Assembly: GCF_964213995.1 (NCBI RefSeq)
Contig: NW_027590121.1
Span: 186,001 to 250,000 of the forward strand
From: Mustelus asterias
Lineage: Eukaryota
Direction: 5' to 3'
DNA: 64,000 bases
Of this stretch, positions 5,254 through 57,090 are shown piece after piece. The translations under genes and the position numbers were made by a program. The notes beneath the pieces are model-generated. The model ran no database searches and was not told the DNA's origin. It was given only the letters and a program-made list of their open reading frames with translations. Each line of letters starts with the position of its first letter. Position 1 is the stretch's first letter.

Positions 5254-5685
5254 ATGTTCTCCCAATTTTCTTTACTAATATTGGTTGGTTTTCCTGCCCG
5301 GTGAGTCTGTGTTTAAATAGTCACTGCCTGTTCCCAGCGTTCTCCACCAGATATTTAAGAGATTCTGTAATTTGTTGCAGGCAAAGATGAAGTGTCCCAA
5401 GATCCCCCTAAATTAACGGTTCAGGAAGGACAGACCATAACACTGCACTGCAGTTACTGCTCTGGTACATCCAGTCTCATGGGGAAGCTCCGATTTATTT
5501 ATTGACGATTTTTAACACAGGAGACATCGCTGAAGATTCTCCGAATAGATTTTCTGCTGTTTGTACAAAAGAAACAAAGCGGTCCTTTTAAGTATCGCCG
5601 GAACGCTTCTCTCTGACAGCGCACTGTATTTCTGTGCCATGGAGCCCACACTGGTGCAGAGATATAGCGAACCCCAGACTGGGAA
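5254..5685 (+). pseudogene. TCR alpha/delta-type V pseudogene (leader exon 5254-5300, V exon from 5381, degenerate RSS)
   Basis: Leader MFSQFSLLILVGFPA then GTGAGT; acceptor TTTGTTGCAG; KDEVSQDPPKLTVQEGQTITLHCSY / LWYIQSHGEAPILLL...RFSA / LSDSALYFCAM split by frameshifts, CDR1 deleted; heptamer CACACTG 5647-5653, nonamer lost. Confidence 0.85.
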
Positions 5686-5698
5686 TTCCAGTTAGTGG

Positions 5699-5712
5699 TC
5701 AGCAGAGGGCGC
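5699..5712 (+). promoter_or_regulatory. CTCF motif just downstream of the pseudo-V RSS
   Basis: TCAGCAGAGGGCGC. Confidence 0.7.
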
Positions 5713-6171
5713 GCCCGCACTGATAAACAGAAGCAATTATTTAGCCTGTGAGAGTTCAAGGTCGTAACTAAAATAACACAACACAACATTCAACATGAAC
5801 AGATGAGCAGCAACAGAGGGATTGTATTAGGTGTGTTGTAACTAACATTTATACTGCAAAATTATTTTGCAAATCAATTTATTATGCCCTCACTCACGTT
5901 TTGTATTTTCATGATCTTTTCCTGTCTATCTGATTTAATGAGCAAAACATTCTCAATCTCTACTCTCTGTATCCCATTTATCAGAGCCGGTGCATAGTGT
6001 CTATATGATTAGACCGTGCTGTTGGTTTAGACAGTTTATAGAAAATTAATGCGTTTCACAATGTACCGATTACACTCTTTAGTTAAATCAATGTTTATTT
6101 TCCTTTCGATTGAATGTTTTCTGACAGAATTGGCAGCCCAGTGTTTTGAGCTTAAAATAACCAGGCTTTAA

Positions 6172-6515
6172 CCATAAGACCAAATGACAAAGGCCAGGGT
6201 TAGGCCTCTCGACCTCTCGAGCCTGCCCTGTCATTCAATGGAATCATGGCTGTTCCAACATTCCTCACGTACACTTTACTGCCCGTTCCCCGTAACCTTC
6301 GATTCGCTTACTGATCAAAAATCTATCGAAATCTGTCTTACATATACACAATGACTCTACCCGCGCAGCTCGCTGTAGAAGTGAGTTCCAAACACTCACA
6401 ACTCTCTGAAAAAAGATATTGCTCCTCTTCTCAGTTTTCAATTAGCGCTCGCTTACTCTGAGACGATGTCCCCTGTTCCCAGACGCTTCCACGAGGGGAA
6501 ACATCCTCTCAGCAT
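6172..6515 (-). mobile_element. CR1 3' fragment
   Basis: CCATAAGACC tail and 3' UTR similar to the CR1 at 43010-43830. Confidence 0.7.
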
Positions 6516-6517
6516 TT

Positions 6518-6662
6518 TGTAAATTGAGTTTGTGTCTTTATATGCCCTGTTTGTGAACACAACACCCACTCACCTGATGAAGGGGCAGTGCTCCGAAAGC
6601 TTGTGGCTTGTGCTACCAAATAAATATGTTGGACTTTAACCTGGTGTTGTGAGGCGTCTTAC
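6518..6662 (+). mobile_element. Penelope-like element terminal fragment
   Basis: Ends ...GCTACCAAATAAA..TGTTGGACTTTAACCTGGTGTTGTGAG..TCTTAC, like the terminus attached to the GIY-YIG fragment at 44640-45155. Confidence 0.8.
6570..6606 (+). ncRNA. Minimal hammerhead ribozyme motif (Penelope type)
   Basis: CAC-CTGATGA-A-GGGGC agt GCTCC-GAAA-GC-TT-GTG: core boxes, stem II, palindromic stem III, stem I CAC/GTG. Confidence 0.7.
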
Positions 6663-7034
6663 GTCGATTGATAAAGACCTTATGCCTTTTTCATCATCCT
6701 ACTAACATGCCCTTCCGATTTCAGAGATCTGTGGCCAAAGCCGCCAAGGTTCCTTTGTTCCACAGAACACAAACTTCCAAACTTTATGGTCACGTTCTTA
6801 CCGTGGTCGAACATGTTGATTATCAGCCTGTAAATCCTTTCAGTATTGCTGAAGACTGGTGATAGGGGCGGAGCAGATTCCTGGTCAACAAAACTGCAGA
6901 GGTCAATGGCAAACCGCTGGAGTACTTTGAAATGAACAATCACAGAATGATCTAATGGACGTCCATGTTCACCAATTCCCTCTTAGGGCATGGTAACTGG
7001 AAGAGGAGGAGGTGGATGTCACAAGAGGCTTAGA

Positions 7035-7645
7035 AAGTGGACACTAAAAATTGGCAAATCATGCTGCAGCTTTATATAAGCTTAGTTAGGCCGCACTTGG
7101 AATATAGTGTTCAATTCTGGTCGCCACACTACCAGAAGGACGTGGAGGCTTTGGAGAGGTTACAGAAAAGATTTACCAGGATGTTGCCTGGTATGGAGGG
7201 CATTAGCTATGAGGAGAGGTTGGAGAAACTTGGTTTATTCTCACTGGAGCGACGGACGTTGAGGAGGACCTGATAGAAGTCTACAAGATTATGAGAGGCA
7301 TGGACAGAGTGGATAGTCAGAAGCTTTTTCCCAGGGTGGAACAGTCAATTACTCGGAGGCATAGGTTTATGGTGTGAGGGGCAAGGTTTTAAAGAGATGT
7401 ACGAGGCAGAATTTTTACACAGAGAGTGGTGGGTGCCTGGAGCTCGTTGCCGCGGGAGGTAGTGGAAGCGGATACGATAGTGACTTTTAAGGGCGTCTTG
7501 ACAAGTACATGAATGAGATGGGCATAGAGGGATATGGTCTCCAGAAGGGTAGGGGATTTTAGTTAAGTCGGGCAGCATGGTCGGTGCAGGCTTGGAGGGC
7601 GAAGGGCCTGTTCCTGTGCTGTAAGTTTCTTTGTTCATTGTTCTA
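7035..7645 (+). mobile_element. CR1 3' fragment
   Basis: LVRPHLEYSVQFWSP, LGLFSLERR; TTCTTTG-type tail. Confidence 0.9.
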
Positions 7646-8282
7646 GTGTATTCCGATGTGACTGGGCAGTCTGGATAACAATGGTTGCATAACGTTTTTC
7701 ATCAATAAAAAAATCTGATTAAAAATAATGGCAGCCACAATTCCTTATTTGTTAACCAACAAAACAACAATCTTCCATCAGAATTTAATGTATGCACTTG
7801 AAACTGAATATATTAATCCGTCAAGCCTGTTTCGACAGCACCTTGCGAACCCGGAATCTCTTCCATCGAGAAGGATAAGAGGAACAGCTGCATGAGAACA
7901 CCATATTTTGCGGGCACCCCTTCAAGCCGCACACCATCCTCATTTTGAACCATATCGCCGCTCCCTTGCGTCAAAATTCTGGAATTCATTTTCTGTTTAT
8001 GAGTACGGGCAGAGGACAACAAATTTAAAAAAGTATGGAAGGAGAATTGAAAGAAAGTGAGACATTACGAGTGCGAAATACACAACCAAATGATGCGAGA
8101 AGGACAGAAAGGAAGAGATTCAGAAACGACCCAGAATGCATTGTTCTTTCAAATTACTCATATTTCCCTAGCGTCTATTTATGTAGTTGAATTATTTGAA
8201 AACACGTCTCTCAATAAAAGACCGCCAGCGACGGTCCATCGACAACCTTGCACTTGCGGACAGTGTCACGTACCCTGAGTCA

Positions 8283-8296
8283 CCATCAGAGGGCGT
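8283..8296 (+). promoter_or_regulatory. CTCF motif in a CpG-rich stretch between the V segments
   Basis: CCATCAGAGGGCGT. Confidence 0.55.
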
Positions 8297-8446
8297 TGTC
8301 GTCACGTGTTTCTCCCAACTTTAAATGATGGCGACAAAACCTATAGTACCATTCGCATACCGTTGCTGTTGGCAGTAACATCCGCAGTCCCATTTTTCTG
8401 CTCCCTCTCTCTCTGGTCCACCTCACGTGCCCCCCATTACGAAATG

Positions 8447-8733
8447 GCCGGCACGCTGGCACAGTGGTTAATAGTCCTGCCTCATTGCAAAGGGGGCCCA
8501 GTTTCAATTCCGGCCTTGGGCAACTGTGTGAAGTTTTGACGTTCTTCCCGTGTCTGCGTGCGTTTCCTCCCACAGTCCAAAAATGTGCAAGTTAGGTGGA
8601 TTAGTCATGCTAAATTAGGGGGAATAAGGTGAGTAAATACGTGGGCTTACGGGGATAGGGTCTTGGTGTGACTGTTGTCGGTGCAAGCTTAATGGGCCGA
8701 ATGGCCTCCGTCGGCACTGTAGTGATTCTATGA
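8447..8733 (+). mobile_element. HE1-like V-SINE with CR1-derived tail
   Basis: tRNA-like head, TTCTTCCCGTGTCTGCGTG core, GGGCCGAATGGCC...GATTCTATG tail. Confidence 0.85.
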
Positions 8734-10189
8734 AGAGACTTCTGTCGAATTACTTGTTTGGCACTGGTTGTATCAGAAATGCGGGCGGAGCTATGGGCGT
8801 TGTGCGGGCGTGAGTCTGCAGTTCCACTCCAGGAGAATATTTCCTGAACTGCAGCGTTACTGATTCGGGAGAAGGAAGCAGAAGGACAGCAGTCAATATT
8901 TTTCACTTTTTCAATTAGCGTTTCCTTCCCAATTAAAAGTAAAGAACATGCTGTTATCGTGACTGTTGTAATTTAGGTATTGCTATTCGTCAAATGATGA
9001 CTACTCTTCTTTTAAAAATTATTAATTGGGCGTCAGTCACAAGACCAAGACTTTGTCGATCACTAATTGTCCTCGAAACGGCCTGGGCAATTTGAGAGTT
9101 AGTCATATGGTTGTTGATCTGCAGTTACACACAGACAAGGCCAGGCTAGGAAGGCAGATTTCCTTCCACAAAGTGCATTAGTGAACCAAGCGGATTTGCA
9201 GTGACAGCGTTCGCAACCATCAATGCGAGTAGCTTTCAATATCAATTAATCACATTTACATTGAACCAGCTGCTGGGGTAGAATTTTGACTGCTTTTATC
9301 CAAAATCGAAGTTAAATGTAACCAGTTGATATGATGGGATTGAACTACTTTTCCCAAAGCATAATTCTGGGTCCCTGAACTACTTGTCCGTGACCCCATG
9401 TTGATAATGATTAAGAAGAAAAAGCGGAAGTTCTTGAAGTTGACTCGTCCCAGTATATTATATGAGAATGGGGCCACAACTACAAAGTGCATCTTGTCGT
9501 CCCTGAGTGGACCTTTGAAAAGGAAGTGTCATAATTAGCTGCACCATGACAATTTGCTATCCTAACCCTACTGATTTCAGGCATGGTCAGGTTTCAGTAC
9601 AGCATCCACAGTACGCGTTTTACATTATCTCAGGAACAATAAACAGGCAACTAGAGCTCACTGATCGATTTCCCTGTTCCTTTAGTAAAACAAGGACGAT
9701 TACAAAGCCCATCCACCGATATCTGAACATTGGAACATAAAACTTAGGCTGCCTGCGAATCCGCTCGACCCTTCAGTCAGATTACAGTTCATCTGATCTT
9801 CCTTTTAAATCCACTTTACTGCATTGATCCTCATGAACCGTGACATAAATTTTAGTTAAAATGTTGGTTTCACTCAGCTTTAAACTTATTCTGTGACCCA
9901 AAGCCTCCACCGTTCTCTGGACTCTCACTGGAGTCACAGGCACGAATGCTCGGATGCTAAAGCTAAGAGAATGTGCACAGAACATTGATTGGAAATCCAC
10001 CAAATCAATCAACACTCCTTGCCCTTCCGTTCCAATAACAAAATGAAGGTCTTTTTCTTGATATCCCGTTTCCAAAGCGGAACAAATCGCCCAACAGGGA
10101 CACCGCATAGATTACAAGTTGGAGAGCTTCCATTCACTGACAGTCCTCTTATCAACTACCAATCTCACGGTGGCACTGGTGAGACACGG

Positions 10190-10232
10190 AATTGACGCAT
10201 GAGCATTCTGAGACACGTCATCAGATTATAAA
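10190..10232 (+). promoter_or_regulatory. V-segment promoter: two CRE-like sites and a TATA box
   Basis: TGACGCA, ACACGTCA and TATAAA about 65-105 bp upstream of the leader ATG; CRE sites are typical of TCR V promoters. Confidence 0.6.
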
Positions 10233-10296
10233 GGGTGGGGATTAGAATGGGTTTCTTCAAATATCGGATTCCCCCTTTACAGAGCGGACAGAGACA

Positions 10297-10754
10297 ATGC
10301 GGGTACTCGGCATCTGGATTGTGTGGGGGGCATTTCTAACAGGTATTTCTGTACATCACGTATGTTTTCTCATTTCCAAAATTTGGGTTGAATCTTACTG
10401 TTGAGTCACGTCACTCTATTCTTTATCTATTTGAACATATTTTCCAGATCTGACCCATGGAGATTCTGTCACTCAGTCGCTGTCCTCAGATGTTAAGACA
10501 GAAGGAGACGCGGTGACATTAAACTGCAACTATGATACTGCAGAAACCTACTATTATTTATACTGGTATCGACAGCATCCAGACTCCCAGCCCGAGTACA
10601 TTCTGAGGAAATATTCGGAGGGTAATGAATATAAAGCAGATTTTGCTAAAATCCGTTTCTCGACTGATCTCCAGACCTCGAAGAAATCCATCAGTTTGAC
10701 TATCTCGGATCTGCAGTTGTCTGACGCGGCCGTGTATTACTGCGCTTTCAGCCT
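10297..10754 (+). CDS. Intact TCR alpha/delta-type V gene segment (leader exon 10297-10342, phase-1 intron, V exon 10448-10754)
   Basis: MRVLGIWIVWGAFLT|DLTHGDSVTQ...VTLNCNY...LYWYRQ...RFS...LQLSDAAVYYCAFS; GT-AG intron; open frame with both Cys and the conserved Trp. Confidence 0.95.
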
Positions 10755-10793
10755 CACAGTGATGGAAAGCAGCCTGACTCCTGTACAAAAACT
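10755..10793 (+). other. Recombination signal sequence with 23-bp spacer
   Basis: CACAGTG (10755-10761), 23 nt, ACAAAAACT (10785-10793). Confidence 0.95.
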
Positions 10794-11170
10794 GTCTCAG
10801 CAAGATAAGTTAGAGCTCCTCGCTGCTGTATAGAACTTCTGGCAGATGCAGCCACAATGAGCAGCGGCGCTGTCAGCCGCTCAAACATGCGCTGACAGGA
10901 AACCACATTCACCTCGGATCAACTGTCACCCAACTGGTTCCAGGAGAGGCTGAGAAAACAAACTGCAGAATCAATTAGGGCGACAGGTCCATCACATAGT
11001 CAATGCATCAATTAAATCGTCCCTTCTGCTACTAATCAGTTCTGTATTCCTCTATAATCAAATCTGGATTTTAAAATCAAGCCGAGAAATAGATTGCTAA
11101 CACCAAATATCCGTCAAACCTCGCCGTGAAGCGTCACACAGACAGCAGGCGTACAGCTTACCATGTTTGT

Positions 11171-11255
11171 GGCTCGTTGGTCTGGGGTATGATTCTCGCT
11201 TGGGACAATTGCATTTAGATGCGATAGAACTTGGGTTCGTATCCTGGCCGAGCCT
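11171..11255 (+). tRNA. Degenerate tRNA-Pro with a 14-15 nt insert at the canonical intron site (probable pseudogene)
   Basis: GGCTCGTTGGTCT-GGGGTATGATTCTCGCTT...GGGTTCG.ATCC.GG.CGAGCC matches vertebrate tRNA-Pro; T6 terminator at 11263; weak T-stem. Confidence 0.75.
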
Positions 11256-11267
11256 AAAACACTTTTT

Positions 11268-11390
11268 TATGAATAGGATGGGAATCCCGGAAGGGTCGGG
11301 GGTTTAAGTTCAGTCGGGCAGCATGGTCGGTGCACGTTTGGAGGGCCAAAGGGCCTGTTCCTGTGCTGTAATTTTCTTTGTTCTTTGTTC
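11268..11390 (+). mobile_element. Short CR1 3' end
   Basis: GGGCCTGTTCCTGTGCTG followed by (TTCTTTG)n. Confidence 0.8.
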
Positions 11391-11839
11391 CTCTGATTCC
11401 GAAGTCCCTATTAAATAGAAACATTCACAGTTTACAAATAAACAGAACAGAAACCTCCCTCGAAACACATCATGATATTCTCATTTTACAGGATATTGAA
11501 AGAGGAATTACAGGCTGAAATCTCAAATGTCACGTCTAGATCTGGCAGTCATATTCCTTGGGAGTGAAATATCATCGGCCTTTGAATCTTGAAGGGGAAA
11601 TGTTTGTCCAGTCTGTCGATTTGAAAAAAAATTCAAACATCAGTGTGACTGGAACAGCACCAACACACTGCCACACTCGAGTGAGAGTGTTCCAATGCAC
11701 TGACTGAAGAGCTTTAACCAGTTACACAGCCTGAATAAATATCACACCATTCACAGTGAGGAGAGACCGTACTGGTGTTGTGCCTGGACGAGGTTTCAAC
11801 TGATTGTCCACCCAAGAGAGCGGCAAGGACACCTGCACC

Positions 11840-13100
11840 ATGGAGAAACCATGGAAATGTGCGGACTGTGGGAAGAGATACAGAGCCCCATCTCAGCTGG
11901 AAGCTCATCGGCGCAGTCACACTGGGGAGAGGCCATTCATCTGCTCTCAGTGTGGGGAGGGATTCGCTCTGTTATCCACGTTGCAGAAACACCAGCGAGT
12001 TCACACTGGAGAGAGACCGTTCACCTGCTCTCAGTGTGGTAACAAGTTCACTCGGTTATCCAATCTGCAGACACACCAGCGAGTTCACACTGGGGAGAGG
12101 CCATTCACCTGCTCTCAGTGTGGGAAGGGATTCAGTCAGTTTTCCAGCCTGCGGACACACCAGCGAGTTCACACCGGGGAGAGACCATTCACCTGCTCTC
12201 AGTGTGGGGAAGGATTCGCTCTGTTATCCACGTTGCAGAAACACCAGCGAGTTCACACTGGAGAAAGACCGTTCACCTGCTCTCAGTGTGGGAACAAGTT
12301 CACTCGGTTATCCAATCTGCAGTCACACCAGCGAGTTCACACTGGGGAGAGGCCATTTACCTGCTCTCAGTGTGGGAAGGGATTCAGTCAGTTTTCCAGC
12401 CTGCGGACACACCAGTGAGTTCACACCGGGGAGAGACCATTCACCTGCTGTCAGTGTGGGGAGGGATTCAGAGCTTCATCCAGCCTGCTGATACACCAGC
12501 GAGTTCACACTGGGGAGAGGCCCTTCACCTGCTCTCAGTGTGGGGAGGGATTCAGAGCTTCATCCAGCCTGCGGACACACCAGCAAGTTCACACTGGGGA
12601 GAGACCGTTCACCTGCTCTCAGTGTGGGAAGGGATTCACTCGGTCATCCAGCCTGCGGACACACCAGCGAATTCACACTGGGGAGAGGCCGTTCACCTGC
12701 TCTCAGTGTGGGAAGGAATTCATAACTTCATCCAACCTGCGGACACACCAACGAGTTCACACTGGGGAGAGGCCGTTCACCTGCTCTCAGTGTGGGAAGG
12801 AATTCATAACTTCATCCCACCTGTGGAGGCACCAGCGAGTTCACACTGGGGAGAGACCATTCACCTGCTCTGTGTGGGAAGCGGTTCAGTGATTCATCCA
12901 TCCAGCAGAAACACCAACAAGTTCACACTGGGGAGAAACCGTTCATCTGCTCTGTGTGTGGGAAGGGATTCTCTCGGTTATTCTGCCTGCAGACACACCA
13001 GGGAGTTCACACTGGGGAGAGACCGTTCAGCTGCTCTGTGTGTGAGAAGAGATTCAGTCTTTCATCTCAGCTGTTGGTACACCAGCGAGTTCACGAGTGG
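11840..13100 (+). pseudogene. ZNF-A: C2H2 array of about 15 fingers with TGA at 12416-12418 and a frameshift near 12870 (pseudogene or truncated 6-finger protein)
   Basis: MEKPWKC start, [13 protein letters not shown] linkers, fingers continue in frame past the stop; acceptor TTTTACAG at 11491. Confidence 0.85.
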
Positions 13101-13447
13101 TTCCAGTGTTCGATTTTGCTGTTCTTGTTTCTGCTTTCAATTATATCGGTCAATGGGGAGAGTTGGAGGGTTTCTTTCTGCTGGACTGGCCGGTCTCACA
13201 ACTTTGCCTCCATTGGGCTGATGCTCTTTGAGTTTTGTTGCGAATACCTGGTTTCAGATTTCACAAGGATCACAGAGTGACGGTGTTAGGAAGTTCAGAG
13301 ATATTTAGTCAGCATTTCTGTTTGAAACCCCCCAAATGCCCATCCAATTTCCTTTGTAATTGTTTATTGTCTCCACTTCCTCCTCCCTCGTAGGCAGCGA
13401 GTTCCAGGTCATTACCATTCGCTGCATCAAAATATTCTTCCTCACAT

Positions 13448-13765
13448 GGGCAGCACGGTAGCACAGTGGTTAGCACTGCTGCTTCACAGCTCCAGGGACC
13501 TGGGTTCGATTCCCGGCTTGGGTCACTGTCTGTGTGGAGTTTGCACATTCTCCTCGTGTCTGTGTGGGTTTCCTCCGGATGCTCTGGTTTCCTCCCACAG
13601 TCCAAAGATGTGTGGGTTAGGCTGATTGGGCATGCTAAAAATTGCCCCTTAGAGTCCTGAGATGCGGAGGTTAGAGGGATTAGCGGGTAAATGTGTAGGG
13701 GTAGGGCCTGGGTGGGATTGTGGTCGGTGCAGACTCGATGGGCCAAATGGCCTCTGATCCTATGA
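13448..13765 (+). mobile_element. HE1-like V-SINE
   Basis: tRNA head (TAGCACAGTGG, GGTTCGATTCC), core and CR1-type tail. Confidence 0.9.
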
Positions 13766-13769
13766 TCCC

Positions 13770-13922
13770 ACCCAAAACTTTAAATTTGCTTGTCATCCTT
13801 GTCCCATCAGCTAATAGGAACAGCTTTTCTTTGTCCACCTTATCTAAACCTGTCAGAATCTTGTCCACCTCTATCAAATCTCCCCTCAACCTCCTTTGCT
13901 CCAAGGGGAACAACCCCAGCCT
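13770..13922 (-). mobile_element. CR1 fragment
   Basis: LGLFPLEQRRLRGDLIEV. Confidence 0.75.
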
Positions 13923-14267
13923 GACATTGACAATAAAGATCAATCCAACAGAATATGTTACCTTCTGAAATCAAATGGAATGTTCAATTTCTGTTTTAAA
14001 GGTACTGTGAATATATTGTCCTGGATAATAACGGAATTGGAATAACTAACCTTGGGTGTGGTTGAATGGAATATATCAATCTGGAACCCACTTACAGACT
14101 AGTGAAAGTCTGGAATGTGTCGCTGGAAATCCCTCCGGAACAGCACTTTGGGTCACCTATACCTCAGGCATTGCAGTAGTTCAAGAAGGCAGTGTTGGGG
14201 TTGACATATTCTGTTATAATTGATGGACTGTAGTTTGAATGTGAGGCATTATAGGACTGGACTATGG

Positions 14268-15515
14268 AGTCATAGAGGTTTACAGCATGGAAATAGGCCC
14301 ATCAGCCCAACTTGTCCATGCTGCCCTTTTTTTAAAACCCCTTAGCTAATCCCAATTGCCCGCATTTGGCCCATATCCCTCTATACCCATCTTATCCATG
14401 TAACTATCTAAAAGCTTTTTAAAAGACAAAATTGTACCCGCCTCTCCTACTACCTCTGGCACTTGGTCCAGACACTCACCACCCTCTGTGTGAAAAAATT
14501 GCCCCTTTCGACACTTTTGTATCTCTCCCCTCTCACCTTAAACCTATGCCTTCTAGTTTTAGACTCCCCTACTTTTGGGAAAAGATATTGACTATCTACC
14601 TGATCTATGCCCCTCATTATTTTATAGCCCTCTATAAGGTCACCCCTCAGCCTCCTGCGCTCCAGAGAAAAAAGTCCCAGTCTATCCAGCCTCTCCTTAT
14701 AACTCAAACCATCCAGTCCCAGTAGCATCCTAGTAAATCTTTTCTGCACTATTTCTAGTTTAATAATACCCTTTCTATAATAGGATGACCAGAACTGCAC
14801 GCAGTATTCCACGTGTGGCCTTACCAATGTCTTGTACAACTTCAACAAGACATCCCAACTCCTGTATTCAATGTTCTGACCGATGAAACCAAGCATGCCG
14901 AATGCCTTCTTCACCATTCTGTCCACCTGTGACTCCACTTTCAAGGAGCTATGAACCTGTACCCCTAGATCTCTGTTCTGTAACTCTCCCCAACACCCTA
15001 CCATTAACTGAGTAAGTCCTGCCCTGGTTCGATCGCCCAAAATGTATCACCTCGCATTTATCTGAATTAAACTCCATCTGCCATTCGTCAGCCCACTGGC
15101 ACAATTGATCAAGATCCCGTTGCAATCAGAGATAACTTTCTTCACTGTCCACTATGCCACCAATCTTGGTGTCATCTGCAAACTTACTAACCGTGCCTCC
15201 TATATTCTCATCCAAATCATTAATATAAATGACAAATAACAGTGGACCCAGCACTGATCCCCGAGGCACACTGCTGGTCACAGGCCTCCAGTTTGAAAAA
15301 CAACCCTCTACAACCACCCTCTGGCTTCTGTCAAGAAGCCAATTTTGTATCCATTTAGATACCTCACCCTGGATCCCGTGAGATTTTAACCTTATGCAAC
15401 AACCTACCATGCGGTACTTTGTCAGAGATCTTGCTAAAGTTCATGTTGACAACATCAACTGCACTGCCCTCATCTATCTTCTTAGTTACCCCTTCAAAAA
15501 ACTCAATCAAATTTG
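14268..15515 (-). mobile_element. 5'-truncated CR1 LINE
   Basis: Minus ORFs 15126-15410 (GSVLGP, FADD) and 14450-15040. Confidence 0.9.
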
Positions 15516-15649
15516 ACCACAGCTCAGTTTCTGCAATCATGGACCATTAAAGCTGCTTAGCAGTGCCCTGACAGAGGACCTGGTGAGAATATTTCCTCAT
15601 TGAGTTAGAATTAAACTTATTCCAGGACTGGCTGGTGTTCAGTGGCTGA

Positions 15650-16140
15650 GATACCCAAATCTGTGAAAAGGGGGTCCGACCAATCAACAAACAGTGGTAG
15701 GTAGTTGATTAAGAAGTTAAGAAGCGTTCTCAGGCATTGTTTAAATTATTTTATCATAAATTTGTGATGAGAACTGTGAGGGGCTATGACCCAATAGTCA
15801 CTGAAGTGACGGTATACTCCAAGTAGCACTGGACTGAAAAGCGAGAGTAGATTCTAATGAATGGTTATAATCCTACCCTAGCATGGCCAGTGAAAAATCA
15901 GAGCTCGAGTGATCAAGAATAATAATGTGATAAGGTGCGAAGGAATAAGATCTCACCGTGTAAAAATCAAGTTGGGATGACATTTGTATCACATAGGAGT
16001 CAATGAATGGAATACATTGGGTATTGCACATTCCCTAGCCTGGCCCGATTGAACACATGAATGGGCTATTGAAACAACAAATCAAGCTTGACCACACACT
16101 CAAAGAGTGGCAAAGGCCTTACATAATTTGAATAATAGGC
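15650..16140 (+). mobile_element. Possible heavily decayed retroviral pol (integrase) remnant
   Basis: 16018-16090 reads WVLHIP*PGPIEHMNGLLKQQIK, resembling the integrase W..HIPY.P...G.IER.NG.LK motif. Confidence 0.4.
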
Positions 16141-16152
16141 CACAAAAAGGAG

Positions 16153-16471
16153 GGGTGGCACGGCAGCACAGTGGTTAGCACTGCAGCCTCACAGCACCAG
16201 GGACCTGGATTTGACTCCTGGCTTGTGTCACCGTCTGTGTGGAGTTTGCACATTCTCCCCGTGTCTGCGTGGGTTTCATCCAAGTGCACCGGTTTCCTTC
16301 CACACTCCAAAGATGTGGGTTAGGTTGATTGGCCATGATAAATTGCCCTTTAGTGTCAGGGTGTTATAGGGTAAATAAGTATGGTTATGGGGGTAGGGCC
16401 TGGGTGGGATTGTGGTCGGTGCAGATTGGATGGGCCGAATGGCCTCCTTCTGCACTGTAGGGATTCTATGA
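16153..16471 (+). mobile_element. HE1-like V-SINE
   Basis: Head, core and CR1-type tail. Confidence 0.9.
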
Positions 16472-16929
16472 ACCCTCTTGAGTAAGATGATAAAACAACC
16501 TGTCCCTTCAATTCTTCCTCCAGACAGGGAATATGACACACCTGTATGTAAGGGTGGCAAGGTGTGGGTACATATCTCAAACCAAACCCCACAGAAAAGG
16601 GGAAATAATTTCTGCTGGACATGCTTGGCTTGTATCTCCTAAGCTGCGTTCACTCCCGATGCATGGGGGATGGAAGGCATCCAGTAAAATATGCACTCAA
16701 AACAAATGTACTTGTGCAGAAGGACAGAAATATTATTTGTATAACATCACTGTCCAGGCATCCGTGCTCAATGTGGCGGATTGTAGCCAATGGCCTTTTG
16801 TGGTGGTATGTCCTCTCCATAACTCCTCATACATGAAGCTTGTACCTTACAGCTGAGTCATGGCCAATGTCAATAGGAATTATCGCCAGTTAATGATACT
16901 ATTATGCATGAATTTGGACAAGTTTGGTG

Positions 16930-17176
16930 GGGAGGCGATGGCCTCGTGATATTATCGCTAGATTACTAATTCAGAACTCAGCTAATGTTCTGGGGACCCA
17001 GGTTCAAATCCCACCACAGCAGATGGTGAAATTTAATGAAAAAGATCTGGAAATAAGAATCTACTGATGACCATGAAACCATGGTCGATTGTCAGAAAAA
17101 AACCCATCTGATTCACAATGTCCTTTCAGGAAGGAAATCTGCCATCCTTAACTGGTCTGGCCCACATGTGACTCCA
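16930..17176 (+). mobile_element. Second tRNA-headed SINE family (other fragments near 2.3-2.5, 9.1-9.2, 25.8-25.95, 27.35-27.78, 48.3-48.4 and 55.2-55.5 kb)
   Basis: GGTTCAAATCCC B-box and recurrent ATGTCCTTT.AGG.AAGGAAATCTGCC body. Confidence 0.65.
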
Positions 17177-18167
17177 CGAATAATTTTTTAAAAACTATGT
17201 CTGCATTACCAGCACTCTCAATGTACATCTGAATGCCAGATAGCTTGAACCCCCTGTAAACCAATGTTGGAAAGATGCATGGGACATATTTGATGTACAT
17301 ACTAATAGAACATATTATTTGATATAGACACACCCACGGTATTGTGCATCTGCCTTCAATTGAACTTGATAAATTATGCAGGTTTATTGAACAAAATACT
17401 CAAGTTTCTGCACACCTAAGTCAAGACAGGCAACATCTTCTTAGGCAGAGTGTGGAAATGACCTGTGCTTAAGGCAAACTTCACCAAACATCGGATGAAC
17501 TTAATTGCCTCAGTTTTCACCTTTGGTGGGGTGTTTTTAATGGATGGTCATCCAAAGCATCCGCTGTTTTTACTTTAATGTTACATCCTGTTGTCATACT
17601 GCGTCTTTGTACCCTTTTGTTCATTTTAATTGTCTTGTGGTGCAGAGTGCGTGCATTGTTCACACAGGTCATTGCTGTGAAGGAACTTATACAGGTACAG
17701 ATGGGATTGCTGCGTTGACTGCTGAATCTCAGGATGTAATGTATAGAAAGTAAAGAGTTAAGATATTCACCAGTCAACTCAGCATTTATTCATGCTGTGA
17801 GAACCTAAAGAAGCAGCTGTGCTACAGAAACAAGCTGACCTTCCAGTGCTGTGTTTGTATATTGTTTCCCAAGCCTGGGAATTGACCAAATCTCCTGTCA
17901 GGTTGTTTGTGCCGCACTGTAAAACACGGGGGGCGGGGCTTCGACCCGGGTACGTTGGTAGTCACCTTGGACCGGGATCACGAATGTTGCCAGGACCTCT
18001 CGAGCTCCAGACCAGCTGTCGTCAGAAGGGTCCCTGACAGGCAGAAGGCAGTGAGACTCATTGTTTTAATTTCTCTCGTATTATTTACTCTTTTTTGAAT
18101 AAACCATTATAATAGTTGAGAGATCATAATTCTGGTCTGTCTCTTATTTAACATTCACGTGGATCAT

Positions 18168-18443
18168 TGGTGGCACGGTGGCACAGCAGTTAGCTGCCTC
18201 ACAGTGCCAGGGACCTGAGTTTGATTCCCAGCTTGGGTCACTGTCTGTGTTCTCCCCGTGTCTGTGTGGGTTTCCTCCAGGTGCTCCAGTTACCTACCAC
18301 AGTCTGAAAGACGTGCTGGTTCGGTGCATTGGCAATGCCAAATTCTCCCTCAGTGTCACCGAACAGGTGCAGGAGTGTGGCGACTAGGGGATTTTCACAG
18401 TGACTTCATTGCAGTGTTAATGTAAACCTACTTGTGACACTAA
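18168..18443 (+). mobile_element. V-SINE variant with an alternative 3' tail
   Basis: Same head and core, but tail TTCATTGCAGTGTTAATGTAA.CCTACTTGTGAC; an inverted SINE fragment follows at 18444-18560. Confidence 0.8.
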
Positions 18444-19099
18444 CCGGAGGAAGCCCATGCAGACATGGGGAGAACATGCAAACTCCATCCAGACAATCAC
18501 CCAAGGCTGGAATTGAACTCGGCTCCCTGGAGCTGTGAGACAGCAGTGCGAACCACCATGTCAGCCCATGTTTGCGACCAGGTGTCCCTGGAAAGGAAGC
18601 ATGTGGTGCCGACCAACACAAGGTCTTCAGTGGGCACTGTGGGGGCTGGAGAGCTTCATTCCTCCCCAGAACCACATCATAGTTTTACATTTGTAACTTT
18701 TCATTCAGGGTTTAGTTTGTGGCTGTCCCTTTAAAGGATTCTCCGCCCCCCCCCCCCCCCCCCCCGCCTTCCCATTCATTTAATTTGATAATTTGATCCA
18801 AATTTCGATGTTAAAGAGTACAGAAGGGGAATTCATTATTGACCCCAAATCACAGAGAATATGGAACTTGGTCCATGGTGAGTGGTTGAGGTGAACAGCA
18901 TGAATACATTGAAATGAAAGTTAGATCCACACATGAGGGACACAGTAACAGAAGGATATGCTGATAGGGAGGAGATGCAGTGGGGTAGGTGGAGGCTGAT
19001 GTGGAGCAAATTACTGACAGACCGATTGAGCCGGCTGGCCCGGCCCTGTGCTGGAGAGTCAATGGAACAGAGACTCATGTATTTATCTGAGATCTGACT

Positions 19100-20040
19100 G
19101 CAGGATCGATCAAACAAACTCAGACCAGTCTTAAGGATCATGGTGTTGTGATCTCAGTGAAAACAGTGTGGAGCAGACACAGCATCTCGGTTACAATGAA
19201 TATTCACCTTCTGAAAGCCCTTGTGTTGCCGTGACAATGTGTGTCTGTGAAAGCTGGACTATCGAGAAGAGTGACGAGGCTCCAATAAAAGTGTTTGAAA
19301 TGGAAGGAGTCGGACGGATATTCCGTGTGTCACGGACGGCAAAGTGGATGAATGAGTGGGTGCTGGAGAAAGCTGGTGTTCACCGGAACCTGTTTGAGGC
19401 TCTCACATCCCGGAAGCTCACCTACTTTGGACATAAGAACATAAGAAATAGGAGCAGGAGTCGGCCATCTAGCCCCTCGAGCCTGCCCCGCCATTCAATA
19501 AGATCATGGCTGATCTGAAGTGTATCAGTTCCACTTACCCGCCTGCTCCCCATAACCCTTAATTCTCTTACCGATCAGGAATCCATCTACCTGTGACTTA
19601 AACATATTTAACGAGGTAGCCTCCACTGCTTCAGTGGGCAGAGAATTCCAGAGATTCACTACCCTCTGAGAGAAGAAGATCCTCCTCAACTCTGTACTAA
19701 ACTGACTCCCCTTTATTTTGAGGCTGTGTCCTCTAGTTCAAGCTTCCTTTCTAAGTGGAAAGAGTCTCTCTGCCTCTACCCTGTCGAGCCCCTTCATTAT
19801 CTTATATGTCTCTATAAGATGTGTTGTGAATAGGGAGGGTGTGTTTGGAAAAAGAGGTAATGTGAGACAGAACACCTGGAAAATGTGTGCAAGGAAGGCC
19901 CGAGATGGGTGGATAATATCAGAATGTGGACCGGCCTCTCGATGGGACAGGCAGTGAGAGCAGCTGAGAAATCAGTGGAGAAAAACTGTTTAGAGTGCGG
20001 CCAACCCTCAGAACGAGGACGGATAAACGACAAGACACCT
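19100..20040 (+). mobile_element. RTE/BovB-clade LINE 3' fragment interrupted by a CR1
   Basis: CESWTIEKSDEAPIKVFEM...RIFRVSRTAKWMNEWVL...RKLTYFGH, resuming after 19820 with PRWVDNIRMWTGLSM. Confidence 0.75.
19431..19820 (-). mobile_element. CR1 3' fragment nested in the RTE element
   Basis: (ACATAAGA)n tail and CR1 3' UTR. Confidence 0.85.
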
Positions 20041-22299: not shown

Positions 22300-22420
22300 T
22301 CAATGGCGGGCTTTATACCCAGCATTCCCCGCGATGCTGAAAGTCCCCTTTCTCCACTGCAGGAGTGTAGTGCGCAGGCCCAATGCTCATCCAGTTGGAG
22401 CATGCGCAGTATGAGTGATG
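22300..22420. promoter_or_regulatory. Probable ZNF-B promoter (ZNF143/Staf-like site and NRF1-like sites)
   Basis: TACCCAGCATTCCCCGCG 22316-22333; GTGCGCAGG; GCATGCGCA. Confidence 0.5.
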
Positions 22421-40990: not shown

Positions 40991-40997
40991 ATAACAG

Positions 40998-41162
40998 AAT
41001 GAACATGATTCAGTCCTGCATGGGATTACTTATTTACTAATTACTTAAATAATAGATAGATAAATAAATGAACATGATTCAGTCCTGCATGGGATTACTT
41101 ATTAATTACTTCAATAACAGATAGATAAATAAATAAATGAACATGATTCAGTCCTGCATGGG
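40998..41162. repeat. Three copies of a 27-bp 3' UTR motif, period about 69 bp
   Basis: AATGAACATGATTCAGTCCTGCATGGG x3. Confidence 0.85.
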
Positions 41163-42512: not shown

Positions 42513-43007
42513 AATGGAAACTCTCAGGTGTGTGTCTTGGCGCTTTTTCAGTCACACTGATGTTTGAAATCTTCACCCACAAACAGAACAAACATTTCTT
42601 CTTCTGTAGACAAAGTCTGATGATATTCAGTTTCCGATGAATTAAATCACTGAAACAGAGCTTGATTTGAAGTTTGTAAATCCAGCTACAGAATACCCTG
42701 TAAAAACAGTTTACAAAAGTCATCACTTTCAGTCCAGGATAGAAACTCTGAACAATTCTAATTTCTCCGGAACATTTTTTTCCTCTTGTCGCCCCCTAAA
42801 TCCCATGCTCCCTGGGCTGAAATCCAAACCCATCTGCACGATCTCTTCCCCCACTCCCTGTTTTCTCTCTCCCTCTCCTCTGTCTGGGTTCAGTTCTCCA
42901 GCTGCTGTCTGCAGACTGACAATAAAACCAATGGGTCTTATTGGGGGTGTTGGGACCTCCAGCGGGTGTTTGTGAATCCTCCCCGCCCACCTCCCAGGGT
43001 TTCCTTC

Positions 43008-44540: not shown

Positions 44541-44639
44541 GGCAATGCTTCATTCAGATGCAATTCAACCCCTCGTTCCTGCTCCACCATTCAATAAACT
44601 GATTTCAGTCTCCACTGCGCTCTGGGGTCGAGAATTACA

Positions 44640-47280: not shown

Positions 47281-48183
47281 TCATTTCCCCACAGGGCAGG
47301 TGAACAGCTTCACCCTGGTGTGAACTCGCTGGTGTCTCAGCAAGCTGAATGACTGGGTGAATCCCTTTCCACACACTGAGCAGATGAATGGCCTCTCCCC
47401 AGTGTGAACTCGCTGGTGTGTCAGCAAGCTGGATGACTTAACGAATCCTTGCCCACACTCCATGCAGATGAATGGTCTCTCCCCAGTGTGAATTCGCTGG
47501 TGTTCAGTGAGGTCAGATGATTGCTTGAACCCAGTCCCACAGTGAGAGCATCCGAATGGTCTCTCGTCAGTGTGAACTCGCTGGTGTCTCACTAATCTGG
47601 ATGATTTAGTGAATCCTTTCCCACACTCCATGCAGACGAACGGTCTCTCCCCAGTGTGAATTCGCTGGTGTTCAGAGAGTTCAGATGATCGCTTGAACCC
47701 AGTCCCACAGTGAGAGCACCTGAACGGTCTCTCGTCAGTGTGAACAACTTGATGGCGCATCAATTCCCCAGAACTTTTATAGCACTTCCCACAGTGTGGG
47801 CACTGAAATGGTCTCTCCTCAGTGTGAACTCGTTGATGGTCCATGAGGTGATCTGACCGAGTGAATCTCTTCCCACAGATGGAGCAGGCGAATGGCCTCT
47901 CCCCAGTGTGAACACCCTGGTGTCTCAGCATTTGGGATGATTGAGTAAATCCCTTCCCACACTCAGAGCAGATAAACGGCCTGTCTCCAGTGTGAATGTG
48001 CTGCTGAGTTTCCAGCTTTACAGAATAATTGAGTCCCTTCTCACAGTGCTCACAGTTCCAGGGTTTCTCCATGCTGCTCGTGTCCTTGTGTCTCTCCAGG
48101 TTGGAGGTAAAGTTGAAAGCTTGTCCACACCCAGAGCATATGTACAGTTCCTCTCCGCTGTGAACGGTGCTTTTTTCTTCCAT
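47281..48183 (-). CDS. ZNF-G: C2H2 protein, 8 intact fingers and 2 degenerate N-terminal fingers; decayed fingers follow to about 47040
   Basis: [11 protein letters not shown] start homologous to ZNF-D; 3' UTR remnant at 45320-45490. Confidence 0.8.
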
Positions 48184-48949
48184 GGTCACAATGTGATGAT
48201 GATATTCAGATAGCGATAAATTGGGTGACTCTGCTGGACCTGATGTGATGTTTGGTTTCAGTTTCCTGAAATTGAATAAAGGGAGTGTGAGAGAACCCAC
48301 AAAAATACAAAGGCAGGTTGTGACATTGAACTGAATAAATCTGGTAATTTGTAGGGCCGGCACTAGGAAAAAGTGACCATGAAAGCTGTTGGATTGTCTC
48401 CCTCAGGGAAGACACAAGTCACTGGTCGAGGGAGAGAGAGGGAGTTAATGCGGTGAAGGACCAAACTCTTTAAGCAACTTCAGATCACCTGCCCGAATAT
48501 CTCCTTCCGTGGCTCAGTGTGAAGTGTTGGTTTGAAATGTTAAAAGTGCGATATAAATAAATCTTGTTATTGATTTGGAAATATGTCGCCATTCCTTCAT
48601 CATCACTGTCTGAAAATCCTGTAACCCTCCCCCTCACCAAGCAGCGGTTCAAGATGATCAAACACCACCTTCTCCAAAGGTAACTGGGGATGGGGAATAT
48701 TTGCTGCTGATCTAGTTAATGACACCCAAATCACAAAAATAAATTTTAAAATATGTAAAATAGATTAAAAGCATTTATGGAAATGCTAGTTCCTGAAAGA
48801 ATGCTCTTTTCCTGTGTATGGACAGTGTCCGCTTAGCAACCCGATCTCCCCTCGGATTTACCTCCCCTGACAATTTCACACTGGAAATTGCTGTTAGCTA
48901 CTGGATACCAAAATCCTCGGGGTTAAACCCAGCAGCTTCTCCTCCATCC

Positions 48950-54085: not shown

Positions 54086-54274
54086 ATTTTAAGACTTAGC
54101 TGGTAAATCAGCAGTGAATAGAGTTGTGAAGCAGTAGAAACAAGACATAACTTGTGGAAATAACAGTTAAAATACACCCAATAATTAGAGGCAGAGGGAA
54201 TTAGACAATGGCAGGGAACTGATCAGGTAGATTAGAGGTGAAACAGCGAAATGGATAGCTGGTTAAAAATTCAT

Positions 54275-55232
54275 TCATGGATGTACAAAGCATGGTTAGT
54301 AAATTTGCAGACGATACTAAATTAGGAGCTGATAGCGAAGAAAGTTATCAAAAATTACAGGGGGATCTTGATCAGTTAGGGAAGTGGGCCGAGAATTGGC
54401 AGATGGATTTCAGTACAGACAAGTGTGAGTGTTGCATTTTGGAAAGTCAAACCAGGGTAGGACTTATACAGTGAATGGTAAGGCCCTGGGGAGTGTTGAG
54501 GAACAGAGGGACCCAGGAGTACAGAGGAACCCAGGAGTACAAGTACATAGTTCGTTGAATGTGGCATCACAGGTAGACAGAGTGGTGAGGAAGGCATTTA
54601 GCACACCGGCCTTCATCAGTCAGGGCACTGAATATTGGAGTTGGGACATTATGTTACAGTTGTATAAGTCACTGGTGAGGCCGCACTTGGAGTATTGTGT
54701 ACAGTTTTTGTAACACTTTTATAGGAAAGACATTGATAAACTGGAAAGAGTGCAAAGAAGATTTATGAGAATCTTGCCAGGACTAATGGGCCCGAGTGAT
54801 CGCGAGGCGTTGGACAGGTAAGGGCTTTATTCCTTCGAACGTAGGAGAATGTGGGGTGACTATATTGAGGTGTATTAAATCATGGGGGGCATAGATAGGA
54901 TGAACCCACATAGTCTTTTTGCCAGGGTAGGGCAATTGAAAACTAGAGGGCAAAGGTTTAAGGTGAGAGGGGAAAGATTTAAAAGGGACCCAAGGGACAA
55001 CTTCTTCACGCAGAGGATGGTGTGTGTATGGAATGAGCTGCCAGAGAAAGTGGTTGAGGCAGGTTTAATAGCAACATTTAAAAAGCATTTGGAGAAGTAC
55101 ATGGATTGGAAAGGATTAGAGGGAAATGGGTCAAACACGGGCAATTGAAACTAGCTGGGAGGGCACCATGGTTGGCATGGATCAGTTGGGCTGAAGGGCC
55201 TGTTTCCATGCGTATTGTTCTATGACTCTATG
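54275..55232 (+). mobile_element. CR1 3' fragment
   Basis: KFADDTK, LVRPHLEYC, FFTQRMV. Confidence 0.9.
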
Positions 55233-55689
55233 TGCTGGCTGCGTCAGCATCTATTGCCCATAACTCATTGCCCTTGAACTGAGTGGCTTGCATTGCTGGG
55301 GGATGTGGTAATTTCCTTCTTTAAAGGACATTATTAAATCAGATGGATTTTCATGACAATTGTCATCAATGGACTTCTAATTCTAGATTTTTACTGAATT
55401 CAAATTGCAACATCTGCAGTTGTGGGATTCGAACCCAGGGTTCACAGTGCATTGCCCTGGATCCCTGTATTACTAATCCAATGAAACTATCTCTGCGCCA
55501 TTGCCTCCCCATCCATGGTAAAGGAGTCAGCCTGAGATCCATAGAATCAGAGAATGCACTAAATTTAATTAATGTCCAGTAACACTCACCCCAAAATAAT
55601 TTCACTGTTTTCACATTTTAAATCTCCTGCTGGAGTCTGCAGCTGCAAAGATCTCAGAGAATTGGTGTCCGGGGAAAAATGTTGAAATC

Positions 55690-55870
55690 TTCAAATCTTC
55701 TCCCTGTAAATGACAGAAGTTATAGATGTAATTCAAGGTGAGAAATTCAGGACAGACAAACATTTCTTTTGGTCTGAGTTTCTTGTGTGTAAATCCTCCC
55801 CTTCTAACCTCCTGTAAAAGGAGTTTCCAAGATCCATCAGCATCTGTCCAGAACAGAAATTCAAAACATT
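55690..55870 (-). other. ZNF-family acceptor/non-coding exon, possibly an upstream exon of ZNF-G
   Basis: AAATCCTCCCCTTCTAACCTCCTGTAAAAGGAGTTT homologous to 23295-23330. Confidence 0.5.
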
Positions 55871-56060
55871 CTCTCCTCCTTTAACCTGGCACAGAATTAC
55901 TTCAGCTGGGACAAAATTGCAGTGGAAACAGTTCAGAGAAGATTCAGTTGGTTGATTCCTGAAATGAGGAGTTTTATCTTTCAGGTTGAGCAGTTTGGGC
56001 CTGTACTCTTTGGAGTTTAGAAGACTGAGAAGTAATCCTATTGAAATATCTGGGAATTTA

Positions 56061-56366
56061 AGGGCGGCACGGTGGTTAGCACTGCTGCCTCACAGCGCCA
56101 GGGTCCCAGGTTCAATTCCGGCCTTGGGTCACTGTCTGTGTGGAGTTTGCACATTTTCTGTGCACTGTCTGTGTGGGTTTCCTCCAGGTGCTCTGGTTTC
56201 CTCCCACAGTCCAAAGACTGTGGTTCGGTGGATTGGCTATGCTAAATTGACCCTCGTGTCAAATGCATGGGGTTGTGGGAATGGGGCTTGGGTGGGATTG
56301 TGGTCGGCACAGACTCGATGGGCCAAATGGCCTCCTTCTGCACTGTAGGGATTCTGTGATTCATAT
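56061..56366 (+). mobile_element. HE1-like V-SINE nested in a CR1 fragment (about 55920-56680)
   Basis: Full head, core and tail; flanks encode LGLYSLEFRRLR. Confidence 0.85.
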
Positions 56367-56689
56367 GATATAAGGTGCTTGACAAGGTAGATGCTGAGAG
56401 GATGTTTCCTCAGGTGTGGGAATCAAGTAAAAATAAAGGATCTCAAATTTAAGATTAAGATGAAGAGAGATCTTTTCTCTCAGCGGGTTGTTGATCTTTG
56501 GAACTCTGTCTTCACCAGTGAGGATTGGGGGCAGGTCATTGAATATATTCAAAGCTGAGGTTTTGATCCACAAGAGAGTTAAGGGTATGGACGGGCTGGG
56601 GGTAGCAAAGTAGACATGATCTTATTGAATGATGCAGCAGGCTCGATGGGCCAAATGACGGGCTCCTGTTTCGAATTCTTATTCCGATG

Positions 56690-57090
56690 TTCTTGGATAG
56701 CTGCGCATGCGCCCTGCTCCCTATTGTCCCTCTGAAGATAGAGGTTCTGAACCAGCCCCCGAAACCACGCCCATTGTGACCCGTCACAGACAGCAGCGCA
56801 TGTGCCCTCCTTCCCCGCTGAAACAAGATGGCGGCCGATAACCGGGGCCTGTTCCCGAGATAAAAGCCTGGGAGCTGTAAACCCGGGACCTGCAGGGTCT
56901 GATTCGGGCCGTGCAGCCTACAGCGGATGTTTGTGAAGCCTCCGCTCGCTCCCTCCCTACCCCAACTCCCGGCTCCACTTCTCCCGCAGCCCAACCGACT
57001 CACCCACTGAAAAAAGCGTCTCCCGCATTCAGGACTCTGAGCAGTGACACTGCGCATGCCCCAGATACAGCACTGCGCCTGCGCAATAGG
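56690..57090 (-). promoter_or_regulatory. CpG promoter cassette, candidate ZNF-G promoter
   Basis: TGCGCATGCGC, CAAGATGGCGGC (YY1), TGCGCCTGCGCA; homologous to 23600-23915. Confidence 0.65.

What the first reader, a model, noticed from the sequence alone, without database searches (positions are those of the whole stretch)
5254..57090. Intact TCR V segment whose RSS points into a zinc-finger gene cluster
Seen: a V segment with intact promoter, leader, frame and 23-RSS lies about 700 bp before the first ZNF exon, and I found no D, J or C segment in the remaining 53 kb. Inference: there are three options. (a) D/J/C lie further right, so deletional recombination would excise seven ZNF arrays from that allele in T cells. 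(b) These Vs recombine by inversion with segments to the left. (c) They are orphons. Option (a) would be programmed somatic loss of transcription-factor genes. The V has its own leader and no extra CDR1 Cys, so it is not a NAR-TCR supporting V-delta.
Basis: partly seen in the sequence, partly recalled or inferred. Interest (0 to 1): 0.7.

Follow-up and report, generated by a model that had tools for sequence, protein, structure and literature searches.

The report
Shark V gene amid multiplied TCR-delta
An intact shark T-cell-receptor variable gene faces zinc-finger genes across an apparently inherited DNA junction, inside a huge duplicated region whose assembly holds 19 delta-chain constant exons; its twin on the chromosome-scale scaffold would join by flipping rather than deleting those genes, while other variable genes are predicted to delete zinc-finger genes as bystanders.

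Summary
In detail: an intact TCR alpha/delta V (10297-10754) with a 23-RSS lies 698 bp before a zinc-finger (ZNF) exon, with seven arrays and no D/J/C in the window. That first array is broken, and the V-ZNF contact is a 3-bp microhomology junction found in three copies. The window's contig (C89) gave no Cdelta, Calpha, Ddelta or Jdelta hit in the 2.6 Mb to the right. A 99.7% twin on scaffold C71 is opposite to every D-J-C there, so it would join by inversion. The window's own copy is unplaced, so its mode stays open. ZNF deletion is predicted for other Vs, because ZNF genes lie 5' of both Jalpha arrays; human IGL is a precedent. The larger result lies outside the window: 19 Cdelta exons (at least 8 loci if alleles are counted generously) and two Calpha paralogues. 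Three compact NAR-TCR cassettes have their own Cdelta and a germline-joined supporting V-D, resembling marsupial TCRmu clusters. The scan noted V-among-ZNF and germline-joined NAR-TCR before on other DNA of this genome; a word search found no note on multiplied Cdelta. Copy number and expression are untested.

The parts
1..19432 (.). Part of a duplicated block, 99.7% identical to C71:13.995-14.014 Mb (reverse) and to C124 (forward). Similarity falls to 95% at 19.8-22.5 kb and is lost beyond.
5254..5685 (+). Decayed V pseudogene: leader, intron, V exon lacking WYRQ, out-of-frame end, heptamer CACACTG without nonamer
10193..10232 (+). Promoter-like motifs (two TGACG half-sites, TATAAA); function untested
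   Evidence: sequence
10297..10342 (+). V leader exon
10343..10447 (+). GT-AG intron
10448..10754 (+). Intact TCR alpha/delta V exon; 39 of 150 scored genome matches are at least 86% identical and have no stop
10755..10793 (+). 23-RSS (perfect heptamer, 1 nonamer mismatch)
10794..11482 (+). V 3' flank shared with paralogous Vs on C104, C105 and C122, which continue into other sequence
11480..11482 (.). Junction (CTC microhomology) joining the V flank to a ZNF exon about 10 nt before its acceptor; it removes the ZNF's own pyrimidine tract and upstream DNA
11492..13100 (+). ZNF array 1, broken (6 fingers, stop at 12416, 5 fingers, frameshift, 2 fingers)
20549..21511 (-). ZNF array 2, open, 10 fingers
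22390..23064 (-). ZNF array 3, open, 6 fingers
26318..26605 (+). ZNF remnant
27927..29225 (+). ZNF array 4, open, 14 fingers
33404..34651 (+). ZNF array 5, open, 13 fingers
41151..42551 (-). ZNF array 6, open, 14 fingers, no ATG before the fingers in this frame
47284..48402 (-). ZNF array 7, open, 8 fingers

Best explanation
The window is a duplicated piece of a very large shark TCR alpha/delta region in which V segments and C2H2 ZNF genes are interleaved in both orientations with many Ddelta-Jdelta-Cdelta cassettes and two Jalpha-Calpha groups; this V is intact and likely joins a partner megabases away, by inversion for its chromosome-placed twin, so the facing ZNF genes would be flipped rather than lost. 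Shown: V anatomy; the microhomology junction that put a broken ZNF exon behind the RSS; partner positions and strands in the assembly; ZNF ORFs 5' of both Jalpha arrays. Inferred: that the V is used in T cells; that scaffold orientation is right; that plus-strand Vs delete ZNF clusters on one allele as bystanders, buffered by the other allele and many paralogues; that segmental duplication, with some germ-line RAG activity, built the region.
For: The twin V at C71:14.003 Mb is on the minus strand. Cdelta cassettes at 7.14, 11.04 and 12.27 Mb and Jalpha-Calpha at 18.37-18.43 Mb are all plus. Of 24 V-RSS pattern hits on C71, 14 are plus and 10 minus. ZNF ORFs lie at C71:18.29-18.36 Mb with no gap before the first of 37 J motifs. 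On C546 they lie at 68-94 kb before 139 J motifs, with one 200-N gap between. The V-flank/ZNF junction is in 3 of 42 matches (40 of 5791 candidates scored) and shows CTC microhomology. Related Vs appear in gene models with Calpha (P0002, 59%) and with a Cdelta-class C (P0014, 68%). Mixed-orientation V fields over megabases are listed for white shark, stingray and epaulette shark (PMC12227049 Table S1). Inversional TRA/D joining is described in salmonids (PMC8559430).
Against: The window's own copy is not the C71 copy. It shares only about 75 kb with C71, and none of 7 probes at C89 300-900 kb was collinear. C71 and C124 are collinear over 45.9 kb at 99.4% and may be the allelic pair. So the C71 orientation does not settle C89. 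I read only small parts of C71, and scaffold orientation in a repeat-rich region can be wrong. No rearranged transcript of this V was seen. The searches are lower bounds, and the D and J patterns miss divergent segments (the D pattern missed intact Ds on C138).
Confidence: 0.62

Rival explanations
1. Deletional model: a same-strand Ddelta or Jalpha lies beyond the right end of C89, so this V deletes the seven arrays and more than 2.6 Mb.
For: C89 is unplaced. Cassettes are numerous and occur on either strand of their contigs. All four on C71 share one strand, so head-to-tail units exist.
Against: No partner hit in the 2.63 Mb to the right. The placed twin is inverted. The array next to the V is already broken.
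Confidence: 0.17
2. The V is intact only because the duplication is recent; it is rarely or never used (an orphon in practice).
For: The block is 99.7% identical to its twins. The nearest inferred cassette, about 200 kb left, is on the same strand and upstream, which cannot give a chromosomal coding joint. The neighbouring V is decayed.
Against: 39 close family members all lack stops. Leader, splice sites and RSS are intact. In salmon most same-strand downstream TRAV are reported expressed, though the authors allow an assembly error (PMC8559430).
Confidence: 0.15
3. The many copies are assembly redundancy (unpurged haplotigs and mis-scaffolding) of a conventional locus with one or two Cdelta.
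For: Two groups of Cdelta copies are at least 99.8% identical. Most copies are on unplaced contigs. No independent read-depth test was obtained.
Against: 16 distinct copies remain at a 99.8% cut and 9 clusters at 99.0-99.3%. Three differ by 10-16% from the rest. A diploid gives at most two alleles per locus. The cassettes differ in D sequence and upstream V content. The Calpha exons are 84% identical.
Confidence: 0.06

Closest known systems
Elasmobranch antigen-receptor complex, TCR alpha/delta V field (PMC12227049; passages, section 6 and the whole of Table S1 read)
   Same: TCR alpha/delta Vs scattered in both orientations over megabases; NAR-TCR Vs among them; a germline-joined NARTCR entry in white shark.
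   Different: The paper calls TCR alpha/delta a translocon; its table lists one Cdelta-bearing entry each for catshark and stingray and none labelled so for white or epaulette shark; 'zinc finger' and 'znf' occur 0 times in its text. Here the assembly has 19 Cdelta exons, two Calpha, and ZNF genes rather than a Cdelta directly 5' of both Jalpha arrays.
Human IGL passengers ZNF280A, ZNF280B, PRAME, GGTLC2 (PMC9282919; passages covering most of the letter read)
   Same: Non-receptor genes, including ZNFs, lie between V and J and are lost when a distal V rearranges.
   Different: Four genes in a B-cell locus versus many ZNF arrays in a T-cell locus; for this V the placed twin predicts inversion.
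Teleost TRA/D inversional locus (PMC8559430; passages read)
   Same: Vs opposite to D-J-C rearrange by inversion and keep the intervening DNA.
   Different: Teleosts have one D-J-C-J-C block in about 1 Mb; here many cassettes over more than 13 Mb, with both orientations.
Marsupial TCRmu clusters [V-D-J-Vj-C] (PMC7615758; passages read)
   Same: Repeated self-contained units with a rearranging outer V, a pre-joined supporting V and their own C (C119, C436, C96); ZNF genes flank the marsupial locus.
   Different: The outer V is NAR-type, not VH-type. Only V-D is pre-joined, so J still needs RAG. The units are inside the alpha/delta region. Convergence, not membership.
Germline-joined shark Ig genes (PMC2193156; abstract and outline only)
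   Same: RAG-type joints inherited in the germ line.
   Different: Here at TCRdelta, and including a retained signal joint.

Membership tests
TCR alpha/delta V segment | V-set domain with both Cys and WYRQ, open frame | tested here: met
TCR alpha/delta V segment | Leader exon, GT-AG intron, 3' 23-RSS | tested here: met
TCR alpha/delta V segment | Closest relatives are alpha/delta chains; linked to Jalpha/Ddelta | tested here: met
   twin on C71
TCR alpha/delta V segment | Found in rearranged transcripts | tested here: inconclusive
   see Tried and rejected
NAR-TCR supporting V-delta (features recalled from Criscitiello 2006, paper not held) | No leader of its own | tested here: not met
   leader present
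NAR-TCR supporting V-delta | Extra CDR1 Cys; lies behind NARV-D-J | tested here: not met
   40% identical to this genome's supporting V, which has the Cys; no NARV in the window
Orphon V | Outside the locus, no D/J/C in cis | tested here: inconclusive
   not met for the C71 twin; C89 is unplaced but starts in a Cdelta 3' flank
Passenger genes deleted by V(D)J joining (IGL type) | Genes lie between this V and a same-strand J or D | tested here: inconclusive
   not met on C71; none found on C89; met for 14 plus-strand V-RSS hits on C71 relative to Jalpha
Passenger genes deleted by V(D)J joining (IGL type) | Copy loss shown in lymphocytes | not testable with these tools
   needs T-cell DNA
TCR Cdelta (the 19 exons) | Preceded by 12/23 D and a few J; groups with known Cdelta, not Calpha | tested here: met
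   47-51% to catshark P0015 (its NCBI name matches the Table S1 entry IgWVTCRD) versus 20-28% to Calpha
TCRmu (TRM) locus | Cluster V-D-J, second V, own C | tested here: met
   C119, C436, C96
TCRmu (TRM) locus | VH-type outer V; fully joined supporting VJ; unlinked from TRA/D | tested here: not met
   NAR-type V, only V-D joined, same Cdelta class

The most novel reading that the evidence does not exclude
This shark has turned TCRdelta from one translocon into an Ig-like multi-cluster system: eight or more expressed Ddelta-Jdelta-Cdelta cassettes, some of them self-contained NAR-TCR units with an inherited supporting V-D (a shark counterpart of marsupial TCRmu clusters), set in a ZNF field that RAG flips or deletes in T cells and has also remodelled in the germ line, so T-cell clones differ in ZNF gene dosage.
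Probability: 0.4. Interest if true: 0.72.

Novelty: new variant of a known kind. Interest (0 to 1): 0.5.

Why it matters
The narrow claim, one V pointing into ZNF genes, is ordinary. Scattered Vs are known in sharks and passenger ZNF loss is known in human IGL. The context matters more. TCR loci in cartilaginous fish are described as translocons. Many Cdelta cassettes and two Calpha in one shark would raise testable questions: how allelic exclusion works across clusters, whether the Cdelta isotypes differ, and whether the cluster-versus-translocon split between Ig and TCR is real. The compact NAR-TCR units extend the known NAR-TCR/TCRmu convergence from protein shape to gene organisation. Retained signal and coding joints give direct traces of RAG acting on a TCR locus in what is probably the germ line.

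Tried and rejected
Expression; no RNA holder listed. laid four contig sets. Run X1 (RNA is the tool's guess; another organism) has two V contigs at 86-92% identity that stop at 10749-10751, one with 54 further unlaid letters, and no cover of the intron or RSS flank; at most a weak hint for a related V, not used as evidence. The junction letters behind these contigs were not obtained, so the J partner is unknown. Summed depths were not used as copy number.

Placing C89. Seven 5-kb probes at 300-900 kb found no collinear match on C71 (one 1-kb repeat-like hit). The last 10 kb of C89 matched only low-complexity DNA. Its first 3 kb is closest to the C106 (99.7%) and C850 (99.5%) Cdelta flanks among 17 tested; C115 ends at its TM exon and could not be tested.

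RAG origin of the V-ZNF junction was rejected: it is about 690 bp from the RSS and shows microhomology. A reciprocal link between the C110 signal joint and the C71:11.02 coding joint was rejected: the signal joint carries a NAR-V RSS. A Cdelta directly 5' of Jalpha was not found in 110 kb on C71 or 95 kb on C546. PDB search gave generic V domains only.

Literature. Eight searches listed no paper whose title or abstract opening describes multiple Cdelta cassettes or ZNF interleaving in a shark. The key nurse-shark locus papers were not held and subscription journals are not searched, so absence from print is not established. The PDF supplement of PMC12227049 was not read. PMC6795676, PMC5931798 and PMC3457774 were seen as passages only.
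Full report
OBSERVATION. The window is G000:C89:186001-250000. It holds a decayed V at 5254 and an intact V: leader 10297-10342, intron, exon 10448-10754, open after splicing, Pfam V-set. Its 23-RSS is the only near-perfect RSS in the window; 200 shuffles gave none. Seven C2H2 arrays follow; six are open and the first is broken by a stop and a frameshift. No J motif or C homologue is present. The closest longer proteins are shark and ray TCR alpha/delta chains at 55-66%. The V is not a NAR-TCR supporting V: it has a leader, lacks the CDR1 Cys and is 40% identical to the supporting V of this genome.

WHY THE V FACES A ZNF. A DNA search with 10750-11900 split the stretch in two (40 of 5791 candidates scored). 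Bases up to 11482 match V paralogues on C104, C105 and C122. Bases from 11480 match 36 ZNF exons elsewhere. Only C89, C71 and C124 carry both. At the switch is a CTC microhomology about 10 nt before the ZNF acceptor; the paralogous ZNFs have a pyrimidine tract there that the window lacks. I infer an inherited rearrangement unrelated to the RSS, copied by later duplication. The C71 copy shares the stop; the C124 copy has an open 9-finger frame.

WHERE THE PARTNERS ARE. The V has 39 matches at 86% or more among 150 scored, on many contigs. C-region searches found two classes. Calpha lies at C71:18.42 Mb behind 37 J motifs and at C546 behind 139 J motifs. The two exons are 84% identical, so they are paralogues. 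A second C has 19 exons, three on C71 (7.14, 11.04, 12.27 Mb, all plus). It is Cdelta by anatomy, with a 12/23 D and a few J upstream. It also groups with a catshark protein whose NCBI name matches the TCRD entry in PMC12227049 Table S1. Eight database models at 81-99% identity carry the label Mustelus asterias.

DELETION OR INVERSION. The C71 twin at 14.003 Mb is on the minus strand, opposite to all four partner groups, so any joint is inversional (12/23 rule and orientation logic, established knowledge). The window is a third copy: it matches C71 and C124 only to 19.4 kb, while those two stay collinear over 45.9 kb. The shared block starts near C89:131 kb. C89 begins about 5.5 kb behind a Cdelta TM exon, by 97-99.7% identity to such flanks, on the same strand as the V. 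A same-strand cassette upstream of a V would put the coding joint on the excised circle and would not touch the ZNFs to the right. To the right, 2.63 Mb gave no partner hit. So deletion of these arrays by this V needs an unseen partner more than 2.6 Mb away, and the window copy's mode is open.

BYSTANDER ZNF LOSS. On C71, 14 of 24 V-RSS hits are plus and all lie upstream of Jalpha. Eight ZNF frames, five with 8-12 fingers, sit at 18.29-18.36 Mb with no gap before the first J; C546 has four open ZNF frames between its Vs and Js, with one gap. Joining of those Vs would delete ZNF genes on one allele. Eleven of the 14 lie left of 13.9 Mb and would also remove the C71 counterpart of this cluster. 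This is predicted, not observed. Human IGL does the same to ZNF280A/B and PRAME (PMC9282919). Many ZNF paralogues at 91-98% exist, so a dosage effect is likely small.

MULTIPLIED CDELTA. Over 3.3 kb the 19 copies form 16 groups at 99.8% and 9 at 99.0-99.3%; three are 84-90% from the rest. With two alleles per locus, 16 distinct copies need at least 8 loci. This rests on one assembly and no read depth. Cassettes differ upstream. C71:12.2 has NARV-D-J, a supporting V and Ddelta. C119, C436 and C96 have NARV-D-J, then an open supporting V already joined to a D remnant with the D 23-RSS, then Jdelta and their own Cdelta within about 16-23 kb. The joint is identical in all three although C436 differs by about 10% around its Cdelta exon, so it is very likely inherited. 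This layout works like marsupial TCRmu clusters (PMC7615758) but fails membership: NAR-type V and only V-D joined.

OTHER RAG-TYPE JOINTS. Pseudo-V to Ddelta at C71:11.0238 Mb, whose closest unjoined V is 98.4% identical at C71:4.70 Mb, minus strand. Pseudo supporting V to Ddelta on C401. A perfect Ddelta-12/NARV-22 signal joint at C110:113696, with the NARV coding end fused to a trimmed J RSS 0.8 kb on. Each of these three was seen once, so somatic capture is not excluded. Germ-line joining is known for shark Ig (PMC2193156, abstract) and is tagged for a white-shark NARTCR.

COMPARISON AND NOVELTY. Mixed-orientation V fields are in print for three elasmobranchs, and inversional TRA/D joining for teleosts. 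Reviews call the shark TCR locus a translocon. Among Cdelta-class models, one search found 8 under one species label, 2 for Heptranchias and 1 each for three other sharks; this is weak evidence, since the search depends on shared words and annotation. The nurse-shark locus papers could not be read. Earlier scan notes reached the 'ordinary scattered V' and 'IGL bystander' readings and noted germline-joined NAR-TCR; one search found none on multiplied Cdelta.

VERDICT. Observation confirmed; interpretation partly supported; new variant of a known kind. The V-into-ZNF geometry alone deserves about 0.25. The multi-cluster TCRdelta context raises the overall score to 0.5.

Noticed in passing
G000:C119:550058-576543; C436:210109-229781; C96:1458687-1433754: Compact NAR-TCR units with own Cdelta and the same germline-type supporting V-D joint; NARV frames open on C119 and C436, supporting V open in all three.
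   Followed up: partly
G000:C110:113680-114900 (L104, L112): Perfect signal joint (Ddelta 12-RSS to NARV 22-RSS) and, 0.8 kb on, an inverted NARV joined to a trimmed J RSS with three extra bases; fits two successive RAG events (inferred).
   Followed up: partly
G000:C71:11023484-11023818 (L050); C401:585-910 (L130): V-Ddelta coding joints on pseudogene Vs, with the D 23-RSS kept.
   Followed up: partly
G000:C546:137570-242101 and C71:18370833-18431907: Two Jalpha-Calpha groups, Calpha 84% identical; neither has a Cdelta in the 95-110 kb read upstream, where ZNF genes lie instead.
   Followed up: partly
G000:C71:12229725-12229886 and 7091239-7091339: Supporting V followed by three (or two) tandem perfect 23-RSS, 61 bp apart.
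   Followed up: no
G000:C71:10999030-10999300: V-like hit followed by an IgH-type J motif (WGPGT) about 25 kb upstream of a delta cassette; may be a joined Ig-type exon.
   Followed up: no
G000:C138:217701-218176: A V with RSS only about 440 bp upstream of an intact Ddelta.
   Followed up: no
G000:C7:140.65-140.69 Mb; C22:53.0-53.1 Mb; C24:52.55-52.82 Mb: Other V-23RSS groups on large scaffolds, probably TCR gamma and beta (unchecked); the beta-like ones are on two scaffolds and in both orientations.
   Followed up: no
proteins P0013, P0016: Two Cdelta-class models (83% identical) in Heptranchias, one with a supporting V, suggesting Cdelta duplication in a distant shark.
   Followed up: partly
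window 63280-63950: Tandem repeat of about 33 bp near the right end; many decayed LINE-like reverse transcriptase fragments throughout the window.
   Followed up: no
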